Of a DNA stretch of 34,107 bases, positions 4,347 to 25,870 are shown in pieces; positions within the stretch are counted from its first letter, which is position 1, and the number at the start of each line of letters is the position of its first letter. The position numbers and the translations under genes were made by a program. Origin of the DNA: a virus (Duplodnaviria; Heunggongvirae; Uroviricota; Caudoviricetes); IMG/VR virus record IMGVR_UViG_2740892209_000010; one strand, written 5' to 3'. Below the pieces are notes generated by a model. The model was not told the DNA's origin. It was given only the letters and a program-made list of their open reading frames with translations, and searched no databases.

Positions 4347-6621
4347 AGCCTCCGGGCGTTTTGTCCCTCCGTCAGCATTTGCTGCAGGCACCGGTAAGAC
4401 GTTTACCGGTGCTTATGCATGGAGCGCGCCACGCGAGGCTGTCGGGCGCGAAAGACCCCTTACACGTGACGAGATGCGTCAGGTGCAAGGTGTTTTATCC
4501 ACGATTAACCGCCTGCCTTACTTTTTGCGTTCGCTGTTTACTTCACGCTATGACTACATCCGGCGCAATAAAAGCCCGGTGCACGGGTTTTATTTCCTCA
4601 CATCCACTTTTCAGCGCCGTTTATGGCCGCGCATTGAGCGTGTGAATCAGCGCCATGAAATGAACACCGACGCGTCGTTACTGTTTCTGGCAGAGCGTGA
4701 CCACTATGCGCGCCTGCCGGGAATGAATGACAAGGAGCTGAAAAAGTTTGCTGCCCGTATCTCATCGCAGCTTTTCATGATGTATGAGGAACTCAGCGAT
4801 GCCTGGGTGGATGCGCATGGCGAAAAAGAATCGCTGTTTACGGATGAGGCGCAGGCTCACCTCTATGGTCATGTTGCTGGCGCTGCACGTGCTTTCAATA
4901 TATCCCCTCTCTACTGGAAAAAATACCGTAAAGGGCAGATGACCACGAGGCAGGCATATTCTGCCATTGCCCGTCTGTTTAACGATGAGTGGTGGACTCA
5001 TCAGCTTAAAGGCCAGCGTATGCGCTGGCATGAGGCGTTACTGATTGCTGTCGGGGAGGTCAATAAAGACCGTTCTCCTTATGCCAGTAAACATGCCATT
5101 CGTGATGTGTGTGCACGCCGCCAGGCAAATCTGGAATTTCTTAAATCGTGTGATCTCGAAAACAGGGAAACCGGCGAGCGCATCGACCTTATCAGTAAGG
5201 TGATGGGCAGTATTTCTAATCCTGAAATTCGCCGGATGGAGCTGATGAACACCATTGCCGGTATTGAGCGTTACGCCGCAGCAGAGGGTGATGTGGGGAT
5301 GTTTATCACGCTGACCGCGCCGTCAAAGTATCACCCGACACGTCAGGTCAGAAAAGGCGAAAGTAAAACCGTCCAGCTAAATCACGGCTGGAACGATGAG
5401 GCATTTAATCCAAAGGATGCGCAGCGTTATCTCTGCCGTATCTGGAGCCTGATGCGCACGGCATTCAAGGATAATGATTTACAGGTCTACGGTTTGCGTG
5501 TCGTCGAGCCACACCACGACGGAACGCCGCACTGGCATATGATGCTTTTTTGTAATCCGCGCCAGCGTAACCAGATTATCGAAATCATGCGTCGCTATGC
5601 GCTCAAAGAGGATGGCGACGAAAGAGGAGCCGCGCGAAACCGTTTTCAGGCAAAACACCTTAATCGGGGCGGTGCTGCGGGGTATATCGCGAAATACATC
5701 TCAAAAAACATCGACGGCTATGCACTGGATGGTCAGCTCGATAACGATACCGGCAGACCTCTGAAAGATACTGCCGCGGCTGTTACTGCATGGGCGTCAA
5801 CGTGGCGCATCCCGCAATTTAAAACGGTTGGTCTGCCGACAATGGGGGCTTACCGTGAACTACGCAAATTGCCGCGCGGTGTCAGCATTGCTGATGAGTT
5901 TGACGAGCGCGTCGAGGCTGCACGCGCCGCCGCAGACAGTGGTGATTTTGCGTTGTATATCAGCGCGCAGGGTGGGGCAAATGTCCCGCGCGATTGTCAG
6001 ACTGTCAGGGTCGCCCGTAGCCCGTCGGATGACGTTAACGAGTACGAGGAAGAGGTCGAGAGAGTGGTCGGCATTTACGCGCCGCATCTCGGCGCGCGTC
6101 ATATTCATATCACCAGAACGACGGACTGGCGCATTGTGCCGAAAGCTCCGGTCGTTGAGCCTTTGACTTTAAAAAGCGGCATCGCCGCGCCTCGGAGTCC
6201 TGTCAATAACTGTGGAAAGCTCACCGGTGGTGATACTTCGTTACCGGCTCCCACACCTTCTGAGCACGCCGCAGCAGTGCTAAATCTGGTTGATGACGGT
6301 GTTATCGAATGGAATGACCCGGAGGTTGTGAGGACGCTCAGGGGGGCATTAAAACACGGCCTGAAAACACCAAATCGTCAGCAAAGAAACGGAAGCCCGT
6401 TAAAACCACATGAAATAGCACCGTCGGCCAGACTGACCCGGTCGGAACGATTGCAAATTACCCGTATCCGCGTTGACCTCGCTCAGAACGGTATCAGGCC
6501 GCAACGATGGGAGCTTGAGGCGCTGGCGCGTGGCGCGACAGTAAATTATGACGGGAAAAAATTCACGTATCCGGTCGCTGATGAGTGGTCGGGATTCTCA
6601 ACAGTAATGGAGTGGACATGA
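4336..6621 (+). CDS. A: Rolling-circle replication initiator endonuclease A (HUH superfamily), 761 aa
   Basis: In-frame ATG at 4336 gives 761 aa (P2 A length) beginning MAIKASGRF. HUH motif TPHWHMMLF and double-tyrosine motif AGYIAKYISK read directly from the translation. Confidence 0.9.
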   Translation: MAIKASGRFVPPSAFAAGTGKTFTGAYAWSAPREAVGRERPLTRDEMRQVQGVLSTINRLPYFLRSLFTSRYDYIRRNKSPVHGFYFLTSTFQRRLWPRIERVNQRHEMNTDASLLFLAERDHYARLPGMNDKELKKFAARISSQLFMMYEELSDAWVDAHGEKESLFTDEAQAHLYGHVAGAARAFNISPLYWKKYRKGQMTTRQAYSAIARLFNDEWWTHQLKGQRMRWHEALLIAVGEVNKDRSPYASKHAIRDVCARRQANLEFLKSCDLENRETGERIDLISKVMGSISNPEIRRMELMNTIAGIERYAAAEGDVGMFITLTAPSKYHPTRQVRKGESKTVQLNHGWNDEAFNPKDAQRYLCRIWSLMRTAFKDNDLQVYGLRVVEPHHDGTPHWHMMLFCNPRQRNQIIEIMRRYALKEDGDERGAARNRFQAKHLNRGGAAGYIAKYISKNIDGYALDGQLDNDTGRPLKDTAAAVTAWASTWRIPQFKTVGLPTMGAYRELRKLPRGVSIADEFDERVEAARAAADSGDFALYISAQGGANVPRDCQTVRVARSPSDDVNEYEEEVERVVGIYAPHLGARHIHITRTTDWRIVPKAPVVEPLTLKSGIAAPRSPVNNCGKLTGGDTSLPAPTPSEHAAAVLNLVDDGVIEWNDPEVVRTLRGALKHGLKTPNRQQRNGSPLKPHEIAPSARLTRSERLQITRIRVDLAQNGIRPQRWELEALARGATVNYDGKKFTYPVADEWSGFSTVMEWT

Positions 6622-7073
6622 TGGCAAAAATTCACGAGGTAAAGCTGCACGCAAAATATTTCGACCTTGTGCTGGAAGGAAAGAAACGCGCAGAGTTTCG
6701 GAAAAATGACCGTAATTATGAGCGCGGGGACACGTTGATTTTGCATGAATGGGGGCAGGGTGTGTATACGGGGCGAAAGGTTGAAGCCCGGATAACAGAT
6801 GTTACTGACCTGTCAGACTGGCTGGAAGATTATGTCTTGCTAAGTATTGAGCTGCTTAATACAGGCGCATATGAGATTGTGAACTGGAAAGAACTTAGTG
6901 AGCGTGGTCTGTTATTCAGAATTAATCATGAAATTATGCATAAGCTCGGCCTTGCTGTTATGTATGAACCAGAGACGGGAATGTCTGGCGGGGCAATGGT
7001 TGCCACGGATGGAGCATGGAACTATTCAGATGAACAGATGGAGCGTGCACAGCAAAACGGGTGGCTTGGATAA
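6618..7073 (+). CDS. ASCH/PUA-like (DUF3850-like) protein, P2 orf91 position
   Basis: ATGATG at 6618 overlaps the stop of A and has a GGAGTGG RBS. N-terminal MAKIHEVKLHAKYFDLVLEGKKRAEFRKNDR resembles the DUF3850/ASCH fold family (from memory). Confidence 0.6.
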   Translation: MMAKIHEVKLHAKYFDLVLEGKKRAEFRKNDRNYERGDTLILHEWGQGVYTGRKVEARITDVTDLSDWLEDYVLLSIELLNTGAYEIVNWKELSERGLLFRINHEIMHKLGLAVMYEPETGMSGGAMVATDGAWNYSDEQMERAQQNGWLG

Positions 7074-7279
7074 TGCACAGAATACCAGGCGAGATACCGC
7101 ACCATAAAACTAAAAATATCAAGCTGATGGCTATTGTTCAGCGTTTACAGCGGATTATGGTCAACGAAAATCTGACGCCCGATGAGCTAGTCGGGTGTGC
7201 CGAAATAGTCCGGGATAATTACGGGCGGTTTAACTATATCGGTCAGTCCAGAGTTGCGCCACCACCACGCAGACGATAG
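7073..7279 (+). CDS. Small hypothetical protein (68 aa), translationally coupled to the preceding gene
   Basis: TAATG stop-start overlap at 7071..7075; basic C-terminus; followed by an 11-bp perfect hairpin. No recognisable motif. An alternative start is at 7127. Confidence 0.3.
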   Translation: MHRIPGEIPHHKTKNIKLMAIVQRLQRIMVNENLTPDELVGCAEIVRDNYGRFNYIGQSRVAPPPRRR

Positions 7280-7289
7280 ATAACGCCGC

Positions 7290-7350
7290 CAGTCGTGAAA
7301 CTTGTTTTCAGGGCTGGCGGCGTTGAACAACGAGTGAAGCGAGGCGTTAG
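7290..7350 (+). repeat. Cassette leader repeat, copy A (~61 bp)
   Basis: Ungapped alignment by eye with 8262..8322 gives 46/61 identities (~75%). Shared blocks include tgaaacttg, ttggcgg, gttga and gttag. Confidence 0.6.
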
Positions 7351-7508
7351 TTGACATTCATATTTTTACTGCGTTGGTGCTGTTTTTTGACGGTTGAAAG
7401 GAGTTATCTCGGAGAGCTAAAGCTAACAACTTACAAATATTCAAAAGTAAGCTTCCTGTTGCTAACATAAGGTCGATTTTTTATGTGGATGATGCAAAAA
7501 GGATAGCT

Positions 7509-8240
7509 ATGGATACTATAATCGCTTTTCTATCACTCGCTTTTTTTGTTGCTTTTTTCATCGGGTTAATCAAGCCATCACTGGTGCGAATGCCAAGCCG
7601 CAAACGTGCAAGTGCGGTTTATCTCGGAGGAGGTTTTGTATTGAGCATAATTGGTTCAATACTCTATCCAACAGAAAAAAGCCAGCCAGTTGCTAAAACT
7701 GAAACATCAACCGTTGTAGAACACCAAGTCCAAAAAACATTCGAATATGGTGAAAAAACACTCAAGGAATATCGGAGCGAGCCAAAGAAAACTCGACACG
7801 ATATTGTGAATAGTTACATTGACTTTAAGAAAGTTCCAGTCACCGCATCAGATGCATTTTATGCCTGCATGAGTGAGTATACATTTACCAAAGATGATGA
7901 GTTGAAACTCGGTGATGTTCTTGGGTGGTGCTTTAATGATTATGAAAATGACCCGAGTTCACTAAATAATAAAATCAATCTTGATACATTTCAGAGTAAT
8001 TTTAGTGGTTGGGATGGTTCTTATCGTCCATTGGAAAAACTAATTAAAGATAATATGAACGATGATTCATCTTATAAACATGTATCAACGGTATATCATT
8101 TAGTTTTGAATAAAGACCCGCACGCCATTGTGAAAACGACGTTTCGCGGCACTAATGCTTATGGTGGCATGGTCAAACAGACTGTAGCAGCGCGAGTTGA
8201 CGTGCGAACGGGTGAGATCGATTCAATACTCGACAATTAA
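7509..8240 (+). CDS. Accessory cargo protein 1: predicted membrane protein with two N-terminal TM helices and a ~190-aa C-terminal domain of unknown function (243 aa)
   Basis: ATG at 7509 with AAGGA RBS at 7497..7501 (the ORF track starts at an upstream GTG, 7485). Hydrophobic stretches TIIAFLSLAFFVAFFIGLI and AVYLGGGFVLSIIGSILY. Strongly AT-rich relative to the phage backbone. Sits in the P2 tin/old position between replication genes and cos. Confidence 0.75.
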   Translation: MDTIIAFLSLAFFVAFFIGLIKPSLVRMPSRKRASAVYLGGGFVLSIIGSILYPTEKSQPVAKTETSTVVEHQVQKTFEYGEKTLKEYRSEPKKTRHDIVNSYIDFKKVPVTASDAFYACMSEYTFTKDDELKLGDVLGWCFNDYENDPSSLNNKINLDTFQSNFSGWDGSYRPLEKLIKDNMNDDSSYKHVSTVYHLVLNKDPHAIVKTTFRGTNAYGGMVKQTVAARVDVRTGEIDSILDN

Positions 8241-8261
8241 ATAATATAGTGACAACTCCGT

Positions 8262-8322
8262 CAGTGATGAAACTTGCTTTTAGTCTTGGCGGGGTTGAGC
8301 AATGAGTCTTGCAAGGTGTTAG
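8262..8322 (+). repeat. Cassette leader repeat, copy B (~61 bp)
   Basis: Homologous to 7290..7350 (~75% identity). Its 3' end supplies the AAGGTG RBS (8313..8318) for the gene starting at 8324. Confidence 0.6.
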
Positions 8323-8323
8323 C

Positions 8324-8980
8324 ATGCGTAGAATGGAAGCTGCTTGGACGTGGGGTATTCATATGAATTTAAAAATTTTCGGCATAATTGTCCTTTCTGC
8401 TTTGATGTTCGTTTTAGGTTTTTTTCTCGGTGGTTTTAATTGGGAATGGGCTGATAAGAATTATGCAGGTGAGGTGGCGTTGTGGAGTATGTTAGGAGGG
8501 TGGTTATCCGCAATTGCAACTCTGTTTGCCGTGTTGGTTTCATTATATATGGCGTATCAAGCTACTCAGAATGAGATTGAAAAAATCAGGGTTACTCATG
8601 GAGTAAGTATGAGTGTCACTCATGACAATGAGTTAAGTTGTAATCTCATTATTCAGAACTTGAGAAATATGAAAGTGAATATTACTGGTGTTTTTTTGTC
8701 TCTAGGTAAATCATCAGGTAAGTACTCTTTGGATAAAGTAATTGACAATCGTAATATAACGCTTTCATATAAAGGTGAAACAGAAAAGGTACAATTTGTA
8801 ATCCATTCTGGGTATATTTGGTGGTCAATGTATAAATTATTCGATATGGATAAGAACATAGGTTTTGAAAAGGGTAAGATCTTGATAACAACCAACCTCA
8901 ATACATATAAATTTGATTTGCCAAAAGAATATTTAAGAGCTTTTGAGAAAGCTTATTCGGAGTATCAGACAAAAAAATAA
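8324..8980 (+). CDS. Accessory cargo protein 2: predicted membrane protein with two N-terminal TM helices and a ~130-aa C-terminal domain of unknown function (218 aa)
   Basis: ATG at 8324 six nt after AAGGTG. Hydrophobic stretches LKIFGIIVLSALMFVLGFFLGGF and WLSAIATLFAVLVSLYMAY. AT-rich. Lies immediately upstream of cos. Confidence 0.75.
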   Translation: MRRMEAAWTWGIHMNLKIFGIIVLSALMFVLGFFLGGFNWEWADKNYAGEVALWSMLGGWLSAIATLFAVLVSLYMAYQATQNEIEKIRVTHGVSMSVTHDNELSCNLIIQNLRNMKVNITGVFLSLGKSSGKYSLDKVIDNRNITLSYKGETEKVQFVIHSGYIWWSMYKLFDMDKNIGFEKGKILITTNLNTYKFDLPKEYLRAFEKAYSEYQTKK

Positions 8981-8987
8981 TGAGCTG

Positions 8988-9009
8988 CATGCAAAAGGTG
9001 CATGTTTTT
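8988..9009 (+). terminator. Putative intrinsic terminator after cargo gene 2
   Basis: Short stem catgc (8988..8992) / gcatg (9000..9004) with loop aaaaggt, followed by ttttt (9005..9009). Overlaps a longer AT-rich palindrome (8988..8996 with 9006..9014). The stem is weak. Confidence 0.3.
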
Positions 9010-17603: not shown

Positions 17604-18033
17604 TGCCGTCACGGTGCTGAAAACCAGCCCCGAGATGCTGCGGATATTCGTGGATAACGGGAGTATTGCCTCCACACTGGCGACGTCGTTGTCATTCGAA
17701 AAGCGTTACACGCTCAATGTCATTGTGACCGACTTTACCGGTGATTTTGACCTGCTCATCGTGCCGGTGCTGGCATGGCTGCGGGAAAATCAGCCCGACA
17801 TCATGACCACCGACGCAGGCCAGAAAAAGGGCTTCACGTTTTATGCAGACATCAACAATGACAGCAGCTTTGATATCAGTATCAGCCTGATGCTGACCGA
17901 GCGCACGCTGGTCAGTGAGGTTGACGGTGCGCTGCATGTGAAGAATATCCCGGAACCCACGCCGCCGGAGCCGGTCACCCGCCCGATGGAGCTTTATATC
18001 AATGGTGAACTGGTGAGTAAGTGGGATGAATGA
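17566..18033 (+). CDS. R: Tail completion protein R, 155 aa
   Basis: 155 aa equals P2 R; position after the lysis cassette. Confidence 0.8.
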   Translation: MLKPDSLRRALTDAVTVLKTSPEMLRIFVDNGSIASTLATSLSFEKRYTLNVIVTDFTGDFDLLIVPVLAWLRENQPDIMTTDAGQKKGFTFYADINNDSSFDISISLMLTERTLVSEVDGALHVKNIPEPTPPEPVTRPMELYINGELVSKWDE

Positions 18034-18484
18034 GTTTAAGCGTTTTGAAGACCGGCTGACCGGACTGATTGAGTCGCTGTCACCGTCAGGGCGTCGGCGA
18101 CTGGCGGTAGATATTGCGAAGAAGCTGCGCCAGCGCCAGCAGCAGCGAATTAAATTACAAAAAGCCCCGGATGGTACGCCGTATGTACCGAGAAAAAACC
18201 AACCAGTACGAAATAAGAAAGGCCGGATAAAGCGGGAAATGTTTGTGAAATTACGCACTAACCGGTTTATGAAAGCAACAGGTAGCGAGAGTGCGGCGGT
18301 GGTGGCGTTTGCCAGCGGAGTACAACGAATTGCGCGAGTACATCAATTAGGGCTTAGGGATAAGCCGGGGCGTAATAGTGCTGTGGTGGAATATCCTGTT
18401 CGTGAGTTATTTGGTTTTGACAAGGAATCTATACAATTGATAGAAAGGGAGTTATTAGTGATTCTATCGAAAGATGTTATATGA
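18026..18484 (+). CDS. S: Tail completion protein S, 152 aa
   Basis: Length close to P2 S (150 aa). The last ~35 codons are AT-rich like the downstream insert. Confidence 0.8.
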   Translation: MNEFKRFEDRLTGLIESLSPSGRRRLAVDIAKKLRQRQQQRIKLQKAPDGTPYVPRKNQPVRNKKGRIKREMFVKLRTNRFMKATGSESAAVVAFASGVQRIARVHQLGLRDKPGRNSAVVEYPVRELFGFDKESIQLIERELLVILSKDVI

Positions 18485-19236
18485 GACGGGTGTTTGTGGA
18501 TAAAAAGTTTTCCATTTTGAGAAAAAGAGTAAAGCATTCTCAAAAGAAAGTTATGGATTGTATTATTGCTGACCATAATGCTGATATATGTGTGTTATGC
18601 GGGAGTTCTGACGATATTACTCGTGAGCACATTATTCCTCAGTGGGCCTTTGAGTCAAATGCTGAAAAATCTTTAATTAATAAAAAGAATAATCAGTCAA
18701 CTCATTACATTAAAGCCACTGTACCAGCATGCAGAGTGTGCAATTCTGATTTGCTGGGAGTGTTTGAGTATAACCTGAAGAAATTTCTTACGGAAAAGAG
18801 GGGGGAGGAGTTAACAGATTATGAGTATGATTGCATCATATGGTGGTTGCAATACATGGGTTTTAAGTTGCAATTAATGGATTTGCGGAACCGCTTTCTC
18901 AGGTATAAAGGTGGTGATTATATCTCGTTCCTTGCAAACTTCCCGGTTGCAATGTTTTGGGGGAATGTCGATACGACGCCGGGGGATGTCTTCAGGATTA
19001 TACGAAAATCGCGACACAATCTGATGTCGAAATGGAAGGATAAAAAACATAATTCCTTGATGGTTTTTGAAACATCAAACAAGAGTTTTCATTTCTTTCA
19101 TAAGGTTGATGAATTTATTTTTATTGAAATGCCTCAGGTTAAGAAGGCGTTTTTCTTCTTTTTTAATAAAGAATTTGACAGCCATGATTTAGCTCATGAG
19201 GAGTGTATGAAGATTATAGAGAAGTGCTACAACTAA
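18481..19236 (+). CDS. HNH-motif protein (putative HNH endonuclease with ~150-aa C-terminal domain of unknown function), 251 aa; accessory gene at S/V junction
   Basis: ATGA overlap with the S stop. CVLCGSSDDITREHIIPQ ... NNQSTHYIKATVPACRVCN gives a CxxC ... EH ... N ... H ... CxxC arrangement typical of HNH nucleases. Very AT-rich. Occupies the position of the P2 moron orf30. Confidence 0.7.
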   Translation: MRRVFVDKKFSILRKRVKHSQKKVMDCIIADHNADICVLCGSSDDITREHIIPQWAFESNAEKSLINKKNNQSTHYIKATVPACRVCNSDLLGVFEYNLKKFLTEKRGEELTDYEYDCIIWWLQYMGFKLQLMDLRNRFLRYKGGDYISFLANFPVAMFWGNVDTTPGDVFRIIRKSRHNLMSKWKDKKHNSLMVFETSNKSFHFFHKVDEFIFIEMPQVKKAFFFFFNKEFDSHDLAHEECMKIIEKCYN

Positions 19237-19313
19237 TATTTATTATGTTGTATCACAGCTGACAGAATCCTCCATGATTGCTGCTGGTATCGTCCAGCGG
19301 CATCCTTCCCGTT

Positions 19314-19949
19314 ATGAACACTCTCGCAAATATTCAGGAACTCGCGCGCGCACTGCGCAATATGATTCGCACCGGCATTATCGTCGAAACCGACATTAAC
19401 GCCGGTCGCTGCCGTGTGCAGACCGGCGGCATGTGCACCGACTGGTTGCAGTGGCTGACTCATCGTGCTGGGCGTTCGCGCACATGGTGGGCACCTTCCG
19501 TGGGGGAACAGGTGCTGATTCTGTCCGTGGGCGGCGAACTCGACACGGCTTTTGTTCTGCCGGGGATTTATTCCGGCGATAACCCTGCGCCGTCTGCGTC
19601 GGCTGATGCCCTGCATATCCGTTTCCCTGACGGGGCGGTGATTGAGTATGAACCCGAAACCAGTGCACTCACGGTAAGCGGAATTAAAACGGCCAGCGTG
19701 ACGGCTTCTGATTCTGTTACTGCCACGGTGCCGGTGGTCATGGTGAAAGCATCAACCCGCGTCACTCTGGACACGCCGGAGGTGGTCTGCACAAACAAGC
19801 TGATCACCGGCACGCTGGAAGTGCAGAAGGGCGGGACGATGCGCGGCAACATTGAACACACCGGCGGTGAACTCTCATCAAACGGGAAGGTACTGCATAC
19901 CCATAAACACCCCGGCGACAGCGGCGGCACAACCGGGAGTCCTCTATGA
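19314..19949 (+). CDS. V: Baseplate spike protein V, 211 aa
   Basis: ATG at 19314 gives 211 aa (P2 V length). Confidence 0.85.
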   Translation: MNTLANIQELARALRNMIRTGIIVETDINAGRCRVQTGGMCTDWLQWLTHRAGRSRTWWAPSVGEQVLILSVGGELDTAFVLPGIYSGDNPAPSASADALHIRFPDGAVIEYEPETSALTVSGIKTASVTASDSVTATVPVVMVKASTRVTLDTPEVVCTNKLITGTLEVQKGGTMRGNIEHTGGELSSNGKVLHTHKHPGDSGGTTGSPL

Positions 19950-24487: not shown

Positions 24488-24604
24488 GTCAAAGCGCAGA
24501 GTGAATGGCTAAGTCTAGCTCATTAGAAATGTTCGCTTCATGAAAATGGCTGCAGCAAGGATCTATCTCACTGCGGCCTCTTTACAATAACGAAATTTTG
24601 CGAG

Positions 24605-25360
24605 CTATTCCTTGGCCTCTTTATTTTTCTCGCCATCGCCAATGTAAAGAAGATAATCGTTTAAGGATATCCTTCCGGAGGGGCCGGTCCATGTTATCAA
24701 TCCGTTCTCACGAAGATTAAATAATGCTTCCATGAACTCATTATCGTTAAAAGAATGATCCTCTGAGAACAGAATGTTCATTTTTCTCAATAGTTCTTCC
24801 ACTTTAATCTTTTCATATCGCCTTATCAGACTTAGTGCTTTACGACGCATTAAGATTGTAGGTACTGCTTGTGAACGAATGGTTTTTTGTATTCCACTAT
24901 CAAGAACTTTCTTGATCTTGCTCTCTAACTCTTTGATTTTAGTTTCATTATCTCCATTGGACTTAAGCTTTTCATCAACGATGCAAATAATTTCCTGACT
25001 AATGCTGTTCTTGAGGTTGTTTATTTTTTCTTCATTGTTGAGAATCTCATCAGAGCTTCCTGCATGGGGTTTTTTCCATATGTGCTGACGCATATCCGTT
25101 ACCGTATCTCTCATCATAGAGAATGTATCTGAATATAACTTGTCAAATATTTTTTCCAGTCGTTCGACACTTGCCTGGATGTCTTTTGCTGCTTTAGTTG
25201 TCTCTTTAGAAGCCTCATTCGACATTTTATAAAAAACAAAAGAAAGCCAAATAGCCCCAATGGCGAGTACTAATGAGGCTATTGTGGCAATAAAACCTAT
25301 TATTGTTATTGCTGTATCTAATGTGCCTGCTGCATCTGTGACTACTGTTTCTGCTGCCAT
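24605..25360 (-). CDS. Accessory cargo protein 3: N-terminally membrane-anchored, coiled-coil-rich protein of unknown function, 251 aa; opposite strand to the flanking tail genes
   Basis: Minus-strand ATG at 25360 with GAGGA RBS. One hydrophobic helix (TAITIIGFIATIASLVLAIGAIWLSFVFY) followed by a highly charged Lys/Glu-rich region. AT-rich. Occupies the P2 Z/fun position between G and FI. Confidence 0.75.
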   Translation of the reverse strand: MAAETVVTDAAGTLDTAITIIGFIATIASLVLAIGAIWLSFVFYKMSNEASKETTKAAKDIQASVERLEKIFDKLYSDTFSMMRDTVTDMRQHIWKKPHAGSSDEILNNEEKINNLKNSISQEIICIVDEKLKSNGDNETKIKELESKIKKVLDSGIQKTIRSQAVPTILMRRKALSLIRRYEKIKVEELLRKMNILFSEDHSFNDNEFMEALFNLRENGLITWTGPSGRISLNDYLLYIGDGEKNKEAKE

Positions 25361-25652
25361 ATATCCTCAATATTTAACCATACAGGGTAGCGTGTTTTAA
25401 CCGCGGGGAAGTCGGGGTGGTGACACCCTAGCCTTACCCCGATTCCAGAGTATTTATTTATCATACCATTGAAACTATTTAATTTTATCGAAAATTTTGT
25501 CAGAGCGTGACTGAAAAGTCTTCAGCACGTCAAGCATATCGTCGCCGTTCAATTAACACTGAGCCTTTTCTTAGAGGGGTGGGCTGCGCAGTTGCGAGGT
25601 TATGCCCCAGTTCCTAGTTCCTCACTACATTCTAATTAAGCCGGCCAACTAA

Positions 25653-25688
25653 ATGTCCGCTTTTCGCTCAAAGCAGACTGTCAGATTT
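25653..25688. repeat. Right copy of 36-bp inverted repeat bracketing the G-FI accessory cassette
   Basis: atgtccgcttttcgctcaaagcagactgtcagattt; 83% identical to the reverse complement of 24452..24487. Confidence 0.6.
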
Positions 25689-25870
25689 GATAGCGTTTGG
25701 GCTATGTAAATTGTCAGTTGGAAAATGAGTGAGTGCAAATCATGGCAGGCTGGCGGATTACCCGCCTTTTCTTTGTCTGTTGTTTCATCCCCTGACCAGC
25801 CAGGTCAAATAGCGTCTCATGCTCTGCACAACAGAAAATAGTTGCACCCATTAACCACGGAGTTAAACGG

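What the first reader, a model, noticed from the sequence alone, without database searches (positions are those of the whole stretch)
18340..19313. AT-rich HNH-motif gene inserted between tail-completion gene S and baseplate gene V
A 251-aa ORF (18481..19236) starts with an ATGA overlap on the S stop and carries a recognisable HNH arrangement (CVLCG ... REHIIPQ ... N ... HYIKATVPACRVCN) followed by ~150 aa with no obvious motif. Its composition is very different from the flanking tail genes, and the AT-rich stretch begins about 140 bp before the gene, inside the 3' end of S, so the insertion junction may lie within S. P2 carries a moron (orf30) at this S/V position (established knowledge); whether this gene is that moron or a replacement is unknown. 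HNH nucleases in prophages act variously as homing endonucleases, packaging-associated nucleases and anti-phage effectors.
Basis: partly seen in the sequence, partly recalled or inferred. Interest (0 to 1): 0.55.

Follow-up and report, generated by a model that had tools for sequence, protein, structure and literature searches.

The report
HNH nuclease cargo in P2-like prophage
A P2-like prophage carries, in a known cargo slot between two tail genes, an uncharacterised zinc-finger HNH nuclease gene; because proven anti-phage systems occupy the same slot elsewhere and its relatives lie among defence genes, it is probably an untested phage-defence gene, not a tail part.

Summary
ORF 18481-19236 (251 aa; homologues and PGAP start at 18496) overlaps the stop of tail-completion gene S and has GC 0.37 against 0.55-0.60 in the flanks.

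It is a real HNH (His-Me finger) protein. C37, C40, E49, H50, N70, C84, C87 and N88 are invariant down to 27% identity. A family profile matches HNH_5-bearing proteins (hhalign 99.6%). The best PDB sequence hit is HNH endonuclease 4H9D. The C-terminal ~160 aa match no known fold.

It is unrelated to P2 orf30. It is the same gene as ORF16 of phage R18C, published as a "moron" of unknown function.

The swapped cassette is about 18348-19245.

In other E. coli P2-like prophages the slot is empty or holds orf30, a complete Pycsar system, or PADLOC candidates PDC-S33 and PDC-S59. Relatives at 37-41% identity in marine bacteria lie next to AbiZ, a type IV restriction enzyme, a Mokosh-like helicase and PDC-M02.

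Best reading (0.55): a single-gene nuclease acting in defence or inter-element competition. Homing endonuclease and late-phage nuclease remain rivals. No experiment exists.

The parts
18026..18484 (+). Tail-completion / virion-morphogenesis gene S (152 aa), mosaic
   Evidence: Pfam Phage_tail_S E 2.5e-29. The first 78 nt are identical to P2/Wphi S; the rest is only distantly similar.
18104..18347 (+). S' allele segment (S nt 79 to ~322), shared by prophages with different slot cargo
   Evidence: Near-identical in E. coli A30 (Pycsar cargo) and ESDR8 (P-loop NTPase cargo). Unlike P2/Wphi S and closer to 186/Klebsiella-type S.
18348..18484 (+). Cassette-specific, AT-rich 3' end of S (last ~45 codons); left end of the swapped module
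   Evidence: GC 0.38. All HNH+ loci share the S C-terminal signature (S/A)IQL(I/V)E..L..L.K, with low GC of 0.38-0.47 against 0.50-0.59 in HNH- loci. Breakpoints against A30 and ESDR8. Contains TTGACA (18417-18422), 18 nt, TG-extended TAGAAA; this is promoter-like but lacks the final T and is not conserved.
18481..19236 (+). HNH-family gene (251 aa from ATG 18481; 246 aa from GTG 18496)
   Evidence: phrog_10503 E 1.5e-179. 98% identical to R18C ORF16.
18589..18744 (+). His-Me finger (HNH, H-N-N type) core with Cys4 zinc motif: C37-x2-C40 ... E49-H50 ... N70 ... C84-x2-C87-N88
   Evidence: All eight residues are invariant across 32 sequences down to 27% identity. The AF2 model gives strand 46-50, strand 80-84, helix 85-105. 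Aligned to 4H9D on both halves. Sub-threshold Pfam HNH_5 match.
18745..19233 (+). Family-specific C-terminal region (helices, then a four-strand sheet at residues 193-227, then a terminal helix); function unknown, proposed target-recognition or regulatory domain
19246..19313 (+). Conserved pre-V element (right boundary of the cassette), with hairpin 19279-19302
   Evidence: Present upstream of V whatever the cargo: Wphi (empty), A30 (Pycsar), and HNH loci L004, L009, L010. The stem keeps pairing through changes on both sides relative to Wphi. Fold -21.5 kcal/mol, z -2.2. A role as P_V late promoter or leader is inference.
19314..19949 (+). Baseplate spike gene V
   Evidence: Pfam Phage_base_V and Phage_spike. 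Start fixed by alignment with P2/Wphi V.

Best explanation
The gene is accessory cargo (a 'moron') in the S/V slot of a P2-like prophage. It encodes an active zinc-stabilised HNH (H-N-N) DNA nuclease joined to a family-specific C-terminal domain.

Proposed mechanism:
- The Cys4 motif holds the beta-beta-alpha-metal core.
- H50 activates water, and N88 (with N70 as the structural Asn) positions the metal.
- The C-terminal ~160 aa restrict cleavage to foreign DNA, either by recognising a feature of it or by keeping the nuclease off until infection.
- The outcome is protection of the lysogen, or of the phage during its own growth, against competing phages or other mobile elements.

The gene travels as a ~0.9-kb AT-rich cassette. 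The cassette replaces the last ~45 codons of S and ends just before the conserved pre-V element. It is exchanged between P2-like backbones by recombination.

Shown: family membership, motif conservation, purifying selection, cassette limits, slot contents and neighbourhoods. Inferred: nuclease activity, the target, the role of the C-terminal domain, and the defence phenotype.
For: Nuclease identity:
- The CxxC...EH...N...CxxCN motif is invariant in 32 sequences down to 27% identity.
- The family profile finds 586 relatives, including many 300-360-aa proteins. Of 42 such proteins, 30 hit Pfam HNH_5.
- hhalign of the two families gives 99.6%, E 6.8e-25, over 189 columns.
- The best PDB sequence hit is HNH endonuclease 4H9D, aligned on both motif halves (E 0.075).
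- The AF2 secondary-structure order fits beta-beta-alpha.

Selection:
- dN/dS is 0.13-0.28, like S and V.
- The gene is intact in strain EH53, where the neighbouring W gene is a pseudogene.

Slot is a defence hotspot:
- In E. coli A30 a complete Pycsar system sits in the same place, on the same strand, 16 nt after S (PycC 1e-128, PycTM 6e-29).
- Other prophages carry PDC-S59 (P-loop NTPase) and PDC-S33 (RelA_SpoT) there.
- In an even sample of 57 informative E. coli loci, 17 slots were occupied.
- A 2026 survey reports a P2 defence hotspot within the tail genes (PMC13586616).

Relatives at 37-41% identity:
- They are standalone AT-rich genes (GC 0.32-0.38, even in a GC 0.62 host).
- In 4 of 7 loci the immediate neighbour is defence-related: AbiZ, a type IV methyl-directed REase, a Mokosh/PDC-S37-like helicase, or PDC-M02A/B.
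- One Erwinia copy lies in a conjugative element.

Mobility: synonymous divergence of S'+HNH (0.02-0.04) is 3-6 times lower than that of the flanking R and V genes (0.10-0.17) in window versus M172/R18C.
Against: - No experiment exists. The R18C paper found no function (PMC6823313).
- There is no hit to any PADLOC 2.0 model, including HNH components such as PtuB.
- In every P2-like locus the gene lies on the late-operon strand, 0-30 nt after S, with no terminator between them and no conserved sigma-70 promoter. It may therefore be made only late in lytic growth and not in the lysogen.
- No immunity partner or modification gene is present, so self-protection is unexplained.
- The C-terminal domain has no recognisable fold, so the proposed recognition role is a guess.
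- Guilt by association rests on a small sample: 7 distant loci and a handful of slot variants.
Confidence: 0.55

Rival explanations
1. Free-standing homing endonuclease ('intronless homing'). The nuclease cuts the S/V region of P2-like genomes that lack it. Repair from the HNH+ genome copies the gene together with a cleavage-resistant S 3' end.
For: - N-terminal HNH plus a C-terminal domain resembles the layout of phage HNH homing enzymes (established knowledge).
- Presence is sporadic at one fixed site between conserved genes: 76 of the 1626 E. coli genomes with this tail region.
- The HNH gene always travels with its own version of the S C-terminus.
- The cassette is less diverged than its flanks.
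- Late-operon placement would express it during co-infection.
Against: - The private S 3' end is not specific to the nuclease. Pycsar and P-loop NTPase cassettes in the same slot also bring their own AT-rich S 3' ends.
- The family also occurs in an Erwinia conjugative element and as a standalone chromosomal gene next to defence genes in marine bacteria, with no S or V nearby.
- The slot holds many unrelated cargos, so general recombination is enough to explain the spread.
Confidence: 0.12
2. Late-expressed phage auxiliary nuclease. It is made with the tail genes and serves the phage's own lytic cycle, for example by degrading host or co-resident DNA, or by attacking a P4-type satellite that switches on P2 late genes.
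For: - Same strand as the late operon, overlapping or 0-30 nt after S in all P2-like loci, with no intervening terminator and no conserved promoter.
- Retained intact in R18C, a phage isolated and propagated lytically.
Against: - Pycsar, which must be present before infection, uses the same arrangement, so the arrangement does not imply late-only expression.
- Most P2-like phages lack the gene, so it is dispensable for lytic growth.
- Distant relatives are not in phages.
- There is no evidence at all on satellites.
Confidence: 0.15
3. Packaging-associated HNH, a helper of terminase as in HK97-like cos phages.
For: P2 is a cos phage. One distant relative (L024) lies just upstream of a lambda-type portal gene.
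Against: - In the window and all P2-like loci the gene lies between tail-completion and baseplate genes, far from terminase and portal.
- P2, Wphi and 186 package DNA without it.
- It is absent from about 95% of E. coli P2-like prophages.
Confidence: 0.03

Closest known systems
ORF16 of bacteriophage R18C (QDP43509.1); PHROG phrog_10503
   Same: It is the same gene: 98% amino-acid identity, same position after the same S allele. The full-length PHROG match has E 1.5e-179. It was published as a moron that replaces P2 orf30 (PMC6823313).
   Different: Nothing substantive differs. That paper and the PHROG entry give no function and do not note the HNH motif.
His-Me finger / HNH nucleases of Pfam HNH_5 type (Jablonska et al. 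2017 groups 1 and 8; solved example Geobacter HNH endonuclease 4H9D)
   Same: CxxC ... (D/E)H ... N ... CxxC-N arrangement and beta-beta-alpha order. Profile-level homology to HNH_5-bearing proteins.
   Different: - A ~29-residue insertion lies between the two strands, with low model confidence.
- The single sequence is below the Pfam cut-off.
- The ~160-aa C-terminal domain is not found in solved structures.
P2 orf30 and the S/V moron slot of P2-like phages
   Same: Same slot between S and V, AT-rich, dispensable.
   Different: No sequence similarity (E 0.87). orf30 is on the opposite strand.
Prophage-borne defence cargo of P2 hotspots (old, tin, fun; Pycsar in the S/V slot of E. coli A30)
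   Same: AT-rich swappable cassette at a fixed hotspot. The same S allele and the same right boundary as the Pycsar cassette.
   Different: No match to any catalogued defence model. No phenotype is known.
Modification-dependent HNH restriction enzymes such as McrA of prophage e14 (comparison from established knowledge)
   Same: A single prophage-borne protein of similar size that combines an HNH domain with a second domain. It needs no partner methylase.
   Different: In McrA the HNH domain is C-terminal; here it is N-terminal. No similarity outside the HNH core was detected. Dependence on DNA modification is untested.
Free-standing HNH homing endonucleases of phages (T4 Mob enzymes, I-HmuI; comparison from established knowledge)
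   Same: N-terminal HNH plus a C-terminal domain. Sporadic insertion between conserved phage genes.
   Different: The family also lives outside phages, next to defence genes. The altered flank is shared with non-nuclease cargo.

Membership tests
HNH / His-Me finger nucleases (Pfam HNH_5 type) | Catalytic His at the end of strand 1, a structural Asn, and a metal-binding His/Asn on the helix | tested here: met
   H50, N70 and N88 are invariant in 32 sequences down to 27% identity. AF2 gives strand 46-50, strand 80-84, helix 85-105.
HNH / His-Me finger nucleases (Pfam HNH_5 type) | Two CxxC pairs flanking the core (zinc site) | tested here: met
   C37, C40, C84 and C87 are invariant. They align to the Cys pairs of 4H9D.
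HNH / His-Me finger nucleases (Pfam HNH_5 type) | Score above Pfam's gathering cut-off for HNH_5 | tested here: not met
   16.2 bits against a cut-off of 27.5 (E 0.0098), and only profile positions 1-21 matched.
HNH / His-Me finger nucleases (Pfam HNH_5 type) | Profile-level homology to proteins that do carry the domain | tested here: met
   hhalign gives 99.6%, E 6.8e-25 against 42 proteins, 30 of which hit HNH_5. hmmsearch E-values are 1e-8 to 1e-11.
HNH / His-Me finger nucleases (Pfam HNH_5 type) | Structural match to a solved or predicted HNH fold | tested here: inconclusive
HNH / His-Me finger nucleases (Pfam HNH_5 type) | Metal-dependent nuclease activity | not testable with these tools
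   Needs purified protein.
P2 orf30 | Sequence similarity and orientation | tested here: not met
   BLASTP E 0.87. orf30 lies on the minus strand.
Catalogued anti-phage defence systems (PADLOC-DB 2.0) | Match to a defence protein model | tested here: not met
   No hit better than E 0.02 for the protein, and none for nine relatives.
Defence-hotspot or defence-island cargo (contextual class) | Occupies a slot that holds known defence systems in related elements | tested here: met
   Pycsar, PDC-S33 and PDC-S59 occur in the same S/V slot.
Defence-hotspot or defence-island cargo (contextual class) | Homologues elsewhere neighbour defence genes | tested here: met
   4 of 7 distant loci: AbiZ, mREase_IV, a Mokosh/PDC-S37-like helicase, and PDC-M02A/B. 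The sample is small.
Defence-hotspot or defence-island cargo (contextual class) | Protects against phage infection | not testable with these tools
   Needs plaque assays.
Free-standing homing endonuclease | Sporadic presence at one site between conserved genes of related phages | tested here: met
   Always directly after S in P2-like prophages. Found in 76 of 1626 E. coli genomes with this region.
Free-standing homing endonuclease | Altered (resistant) flank specific to the endonuclease-bearing allele | tested here: not met
   A private S 3' end also accompanies the Pycsar and P-loop NTPase cargo.
Free-standing homing endonuclease | Family confined to phage, intron or intein contexts | tested here: not met
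   Copies occur in an Erwinia conjugative element and in chromosomal islands of marine bacteria.
Free-standing homing endonuclease | Site-specific cleavage of the endonuclease-less allele | not testable with these tools
   Needs in vitro cleavage or mixed infection.
Packaging-associated HNH (HK97 gp74 type) | Adjacent to terminase or portal genes and conserved in the phage group | tested here: not met
   It lies between tail-completion and baseplate genes. It is absent from P2, Wphi, 186 and most prophages.

The most novel reading that the evidence does not exclude
The nuclease is translationally linked to S and is made with the P2 late genes. It acts as a weapon during the phage's own growth: it cuts co-resident or co-infecting P2-like genomes, or a P4-type satellite that has switched on the helper's late operon. 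It would then combine marker exclusion or homing with competition between helper and satellite. The cargo-specific S 3' ends of this slot would be part of that conflict.
Probability: 0.12. Interest if true: 0.7.

Novelty: new member of a known kind. Interest (0 to 1): 0.4.

Why it matters
The well-studied P2 hotspots (old/tin and Z/fun) have already yielded many defence systems. The S/V slot has barely been examined. Here it holds a complete Pycsar system, two PADLOC candidate families and this HNH protein, so it is a third place to search for new immunity genes.

The HNH family is small and conserved. It spreads between phages, a conjugative element and defence islands, and is absent from the 2023 PADLOC catalogue. 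It is a cheap single-gene candidate to test.

Each cargo cassette also brings its own version of the end of a tail gene. This is unexplained and bears on how phages swap cargo without breaking structural operons.

If the gene turns out to be only a passenger nuclease, the result is ordinary.

Tried and rejected
- PDB sequence searches with three profiles gave only a marginal 4H9D hit.
- NCBIfam and PADLOC gave no hits.
- The plasmid collection gave no match.
- Identity with P2 orf30 was rejected.
- A transposon-like origin is not supported. There are no flanking direct repeats, only a 13/16 inverted repeat that is probably chance.
- No conserved sigma-70 promoter was found in the S 3' end. The window has TTGACA-N18-TAGAAA, but the element is not conserved across loci.
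- A remnant of S upstream of the copy in the Erwinia conjugative element could not be established. Similarity was weak only (best z 2.5, 7 of 300 shuffles).
- I first took the private S 3' end as evidence for homing. I dropped this once the Pycsar and P-loop cassettes showed the same feature.
- Literature searches for a characterised equivalent found none.

Full report
**1. The observation**

The window is a complete P2-like prophage (integrase, A, portal, capsid, lysis, tail, ogr side).

ORF 18481-19236 (+, 251 aa) is present. Its ATG overlaps the TGA of the upstream gene as ATGA. The upstream gene (18026-18484) is S (Pfam Phage_tail_S, E 2.5e-29). The downstream gene is V (Phage_base_V and Phage_spike). 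By alignment with P2 and Wphi, V starts at ATG 19314.

GC falls from 0.55-0.60 to 0.31-0.44 between about 18340 and 19250. The gene itself has GC 0.365, and the last 144 nt of S have GC 0.38.

Most homologues, the R18C GenBank record and PGAP in E. coli genomes start the protein 15 nt further on. That codon is GTG 18496 here and ATG in R18C and M172. Either start leaves the gene tightly abutted to S.

**2. What the protein is**

A single-sequence Pfam search gives only a sub-threshold HNH_5 match (E 0.0098, 16.2 bits against a cut-off of 27.5). NCBIfam and PADLOC give nothing. PHROGs gives a full-length match to phrog_10503, annotated "unknown function".

Family-level evidence is much stronger:
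- Word-indexed search found 43 clusters at 55-97% identity, all in Enterobacterales and all annotated "hypothetical".
- A profile of these, searched against 1.8 billion representatives, found 586 proteins at E <= 1e-3. About 25 are full-length relatives. Many are 300-360-aa proteins that match profile positions ~25-130.
- In an alignment of 32 full-length members down to 27% identity, the invariant residues are C37, C40, E49, H50, P53, W55, N70, C84, C87, N88, L92, W122 and K129. This set is the complete CxxC...EH...N...CxxCN arrangement of a zinc-stabilised H-N-N His-Me finger.
- Of 42 longer relatives, 30 hit Pfam HNH_5 (best E 2.8e-7).
- hhalign between the two families gives 99.6% probability, E 6.8e-25, over 189 columns (residues 17-221).
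- The best PDB sequence hit of the family profile is "HNH endonuclease" 4H9D. It aligns on both motif halves, but only at E 0.075.

The AlphaFold model (pLDDT 75, pTM 0.79) places a strand at 46-50, a strand at 80-84 and a helix at 85-105. A poorly modelled 29-residue insertion lies between the strands. After the core come helices, a four-strand sheet (193-227) and a terminal helix.

Fold searches with the whole model returned nothing significant. The AlphaFold-database library was not available.

I therefore accept the HNH assignment on sequence and profile grounds. The C-terminal ~160 residues remain a domain of unknown fold.

Among five E. coli/R18C alleles, dN/dS is 0.13-0.28, the same range as S and V.

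**3. Relation to known P2 biology**

In the phage collection only bacteriophage R18C carries this gene (98% amino-acid identity). Its description notes a 741-bp hypothetical ORF16 in place of P2 orf30, one of three "moron" regions, with no function found (PMC6823313).

P2 orf30 is on the opposite strand and shows no similarity (E 0.87). The gene is therefore a replacement, not orf30. Wphi and 186 have an empty slot.

Among 5426 complete E. coli genomes, 77 carry the gene, always next to S. The R-S...V region is found in 1626 genomes, of which 76 hold the whole cassette.

**4. Limits of the cassette**

S in the window is identical to P2/Wphi S for 78 nt. It then switches to a different allele (S'), which is closer to the S of 186 and of Klebsiella P2-like phages (55% identity to P2 S overall, 61-69% to the others).

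Three E. coli prophages share this S' allele but carry different cargo. Each diverges from the window inside S:
- Strain A30 (Pycsar) diverges at S nt ~322, which is window ~18347.
- Strain ESDR8 (P-loop NTPase) diverges at S nt ~285, which is window ~18310.

Beyond the breakpoint each has its own AT-rich version of the S C-terminus, still S-like at protein level (GC 0.32-0.39). The same holds in other genera. All HNH+ loci share the S C-terminal signature (S/A)IQL(I/V)E..L..L.K at low GC. A Klebsiella HNH+ prophage and a Klebsiella phage with other cargo diverge from about residue 130 of S.

On the right, similarity to Wphi (empty), A30 (Pycsar) and the HNH loci of other genera resumes at TGTTGT (19246), 10 nt after the stop codon. 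It runs through a hairpin (19279-19302) to the V start.

The cassette is thus about 18348-19245.

No flanking direct repeats were found.

Synonymous divergence of S'+HNH (0.02-0.04) is 3-6 times lower than that of R and V (0.10-0.17) in two of three comparisons. The cassette has therefore moved recently between backbones.

**5. Context as evidence of function**

*The slot.* In an even sample of 57 informative E. coli loci:
- 40 were empty.
- 8 had an insertion of about orf30 size.
- 3 had the HNH gene.
- 2 had a RelA_SpoT protein.
- 2 had another hypothetical gene.
- 1 had a P-loop NTPase.
- 1 had Pycsar.

PADLOC confirms Pycsar (PycC 1.2e-128, PycTM 6.4e-29). It assigns the P-loop NTPase to candidate PDC-S59 and the RelA_SpoT protein to PDC-S33. 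Pycsar sits on the same strand, 16 nt after S, exactly as the HNH gene does.

A Klebsiella phage has yet another ORF in the slot. A Klebsiella HNH+ prophage has an extra minus-strand ORF there.

The published hotspot studies I read deal with the old/tin and Z/fun sites. A 2026 survey mentions a defence hotspot "within the tail genes", downstream of gpL, holding 16% of P2 systems (PMC13586616).

*The wider family.*
- A scan of one genome per species found full-length relatives at 37-41% identity in Vibrio, Photobacterium, Shewanella, Psychromonas, Halomonas, Paraglaciecola, Dechloromonas and others.
- None of these is in a P2-like setting.
- All are AT-rich whatever the host (GC 0.32-0.38, with a flank of 0.62 in one case).
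- Immediate neighbours include AbiZ (1e-22), a type IV methyl-directed restriction enzyme (5e-65), a Mokosh/PDC-S37-like helicase, PDC-M02A/B, a RES-domain protein and an integrase.
- One Erwinia copy follows traG in a conjugative element.

**6. Mechanism and rivals**

The best-supported reading is a single-gene nuclease serving defence or competition between mobile elements. An active HNH core would have its access to DNA governed by the C-terminal domain. Confidence is 0.55.

The steps from sequence to nuclease, and from context to defence, are inferences. The main weakness is expression:
- The gene lies at the tail of the late operon.
- No terminator lies between it and S.
- No conserved promoter is present.
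- The window has TTGACA-N18-TAGAAA inside S (18417-18446), but this is not conserved.

Because Pycsar uses the same layout, the layout does not exclude expression in the lysogen.

*Homing endonuclease (0.12).* This fits the sporadic fixed-site distribution and the linked S end. It is weakened because non-nuclease cargo has the same linked S end, and because the family also lives outside phages.

*Late-acting phage nuclease, possibly directed at competitors or satellites (0.15).* This cannot be excluded.

*Packaging role (0.03).* Position and dispensability do not support it.

**7. Verdict**

The gene is already recorded, as R18C ORF16 and phrog_10503, with unknown function.

New here are the family-level HNH assignment, the cassette limits, the wider family and its defence neighbourhoods, and the evidence that the S/V slot is a defence hotspot.

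It is a new, untested member of a known kind: nuclease cargo of a prophage hotspot. Interest is moderate.

Noticed in passing
window 18104-18484; L051:3961-4422; L052:1461-1910; L005 and L049 S genes: Each cargo cassette in the S/V slot (HNH, Pycsar, P-loop NTPase) carries its own AT-rich version of the last ~45-55 codons of tail gene S, mutually dissimilar between cassettes. All three follow a shared S' allele that itself departs from P2 S at nt 79. Neither homing nor an embedded promoter explains all three cases.
   Followed up: partly
L051:4438-6340 (E. coli A30, NZ_CP028745.1): A complete Pycsar system (PycTM plus PycC; PADLOC 6e-29 and 1e-128) sits between S and V of a P2-like prophage, on the late-operon strand, 16 nt after S.
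   Followed up: yes
L052:2011-3255 and L053:1994-3073: Other E. coli P2-like prophages hold a P-loop NTPase (PADLOC candidate PDC-S59) or a RelA_SpoT-domain protein (PDC-S33) in the same slot, on the minus strand.
   Followed up: partly
window 19246-19313: A conserved ~68-nt element lies directly upstream of V and is kept whatever the cargo. Its 9-bp hairpin (19279-19302) keeps pairing through changes on both sides relative to Wphi. It may be the P_V late promoter or leader.
   Followed up: partly
window ~6600-9000 (ORFs 7485-8240 and 8309-8980): The classic old/tin hotspot between A and the portal gene is AT-rich (GC 0.34-0.46). It holds two ORFs with no Pfam or PADLOC match.
   Followed up: partly
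window ~24600-25800 (ORF 24605-25360, minus strand): The Z/fun hotspot between the tail-fibre genes and FI is AT-rich (GC 0.37-0.43). It holds a 251-aa ORF with no Pfam or PADLOC match.
   Followed up: partly
window 18332-18347 and 19332-19347: An imperfect 16-nt inverted repeat (13/16) brackets the cassette. Its left arm ends at the left breakpoint and its right arm lies inside V. It is probably chance.
   Followed up: no
L055 (E. coli EH53, NZ_CP146512.1): The W (gp25-like) gene next to V is annotated as a pseudogene with an internal stop, while the HNH gene is intact. This is a single case of the cargo outliving the phage.
   Followed up: no
L005:5926-6576 and L049:3279-4322: Klebsiella P2-like elements have further slot cargo. 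One is a 216-aa minus-strand ORF beside the HNH gene. The other is a 347-aa ORF with a weak LmuA-like match (E 2e-6).
   Followed up: partly
L010 and L011: Contigs labelled as a Sporobacter termitidis MAG and as Chryseobacterium sp. carry Enterobacterales-type P2-like prophage DNA (GC 0.55-0.56). This probably reflects mis-binning or contamination.
   Followed up: no
P0037, P0038; H49 (E. coli FORC_082): A minority of E. coli copies are truncated: 170-181-aa products, and one copy with a 1-nt deletion. This shows occasional decay of the gene.
   Followed up: no
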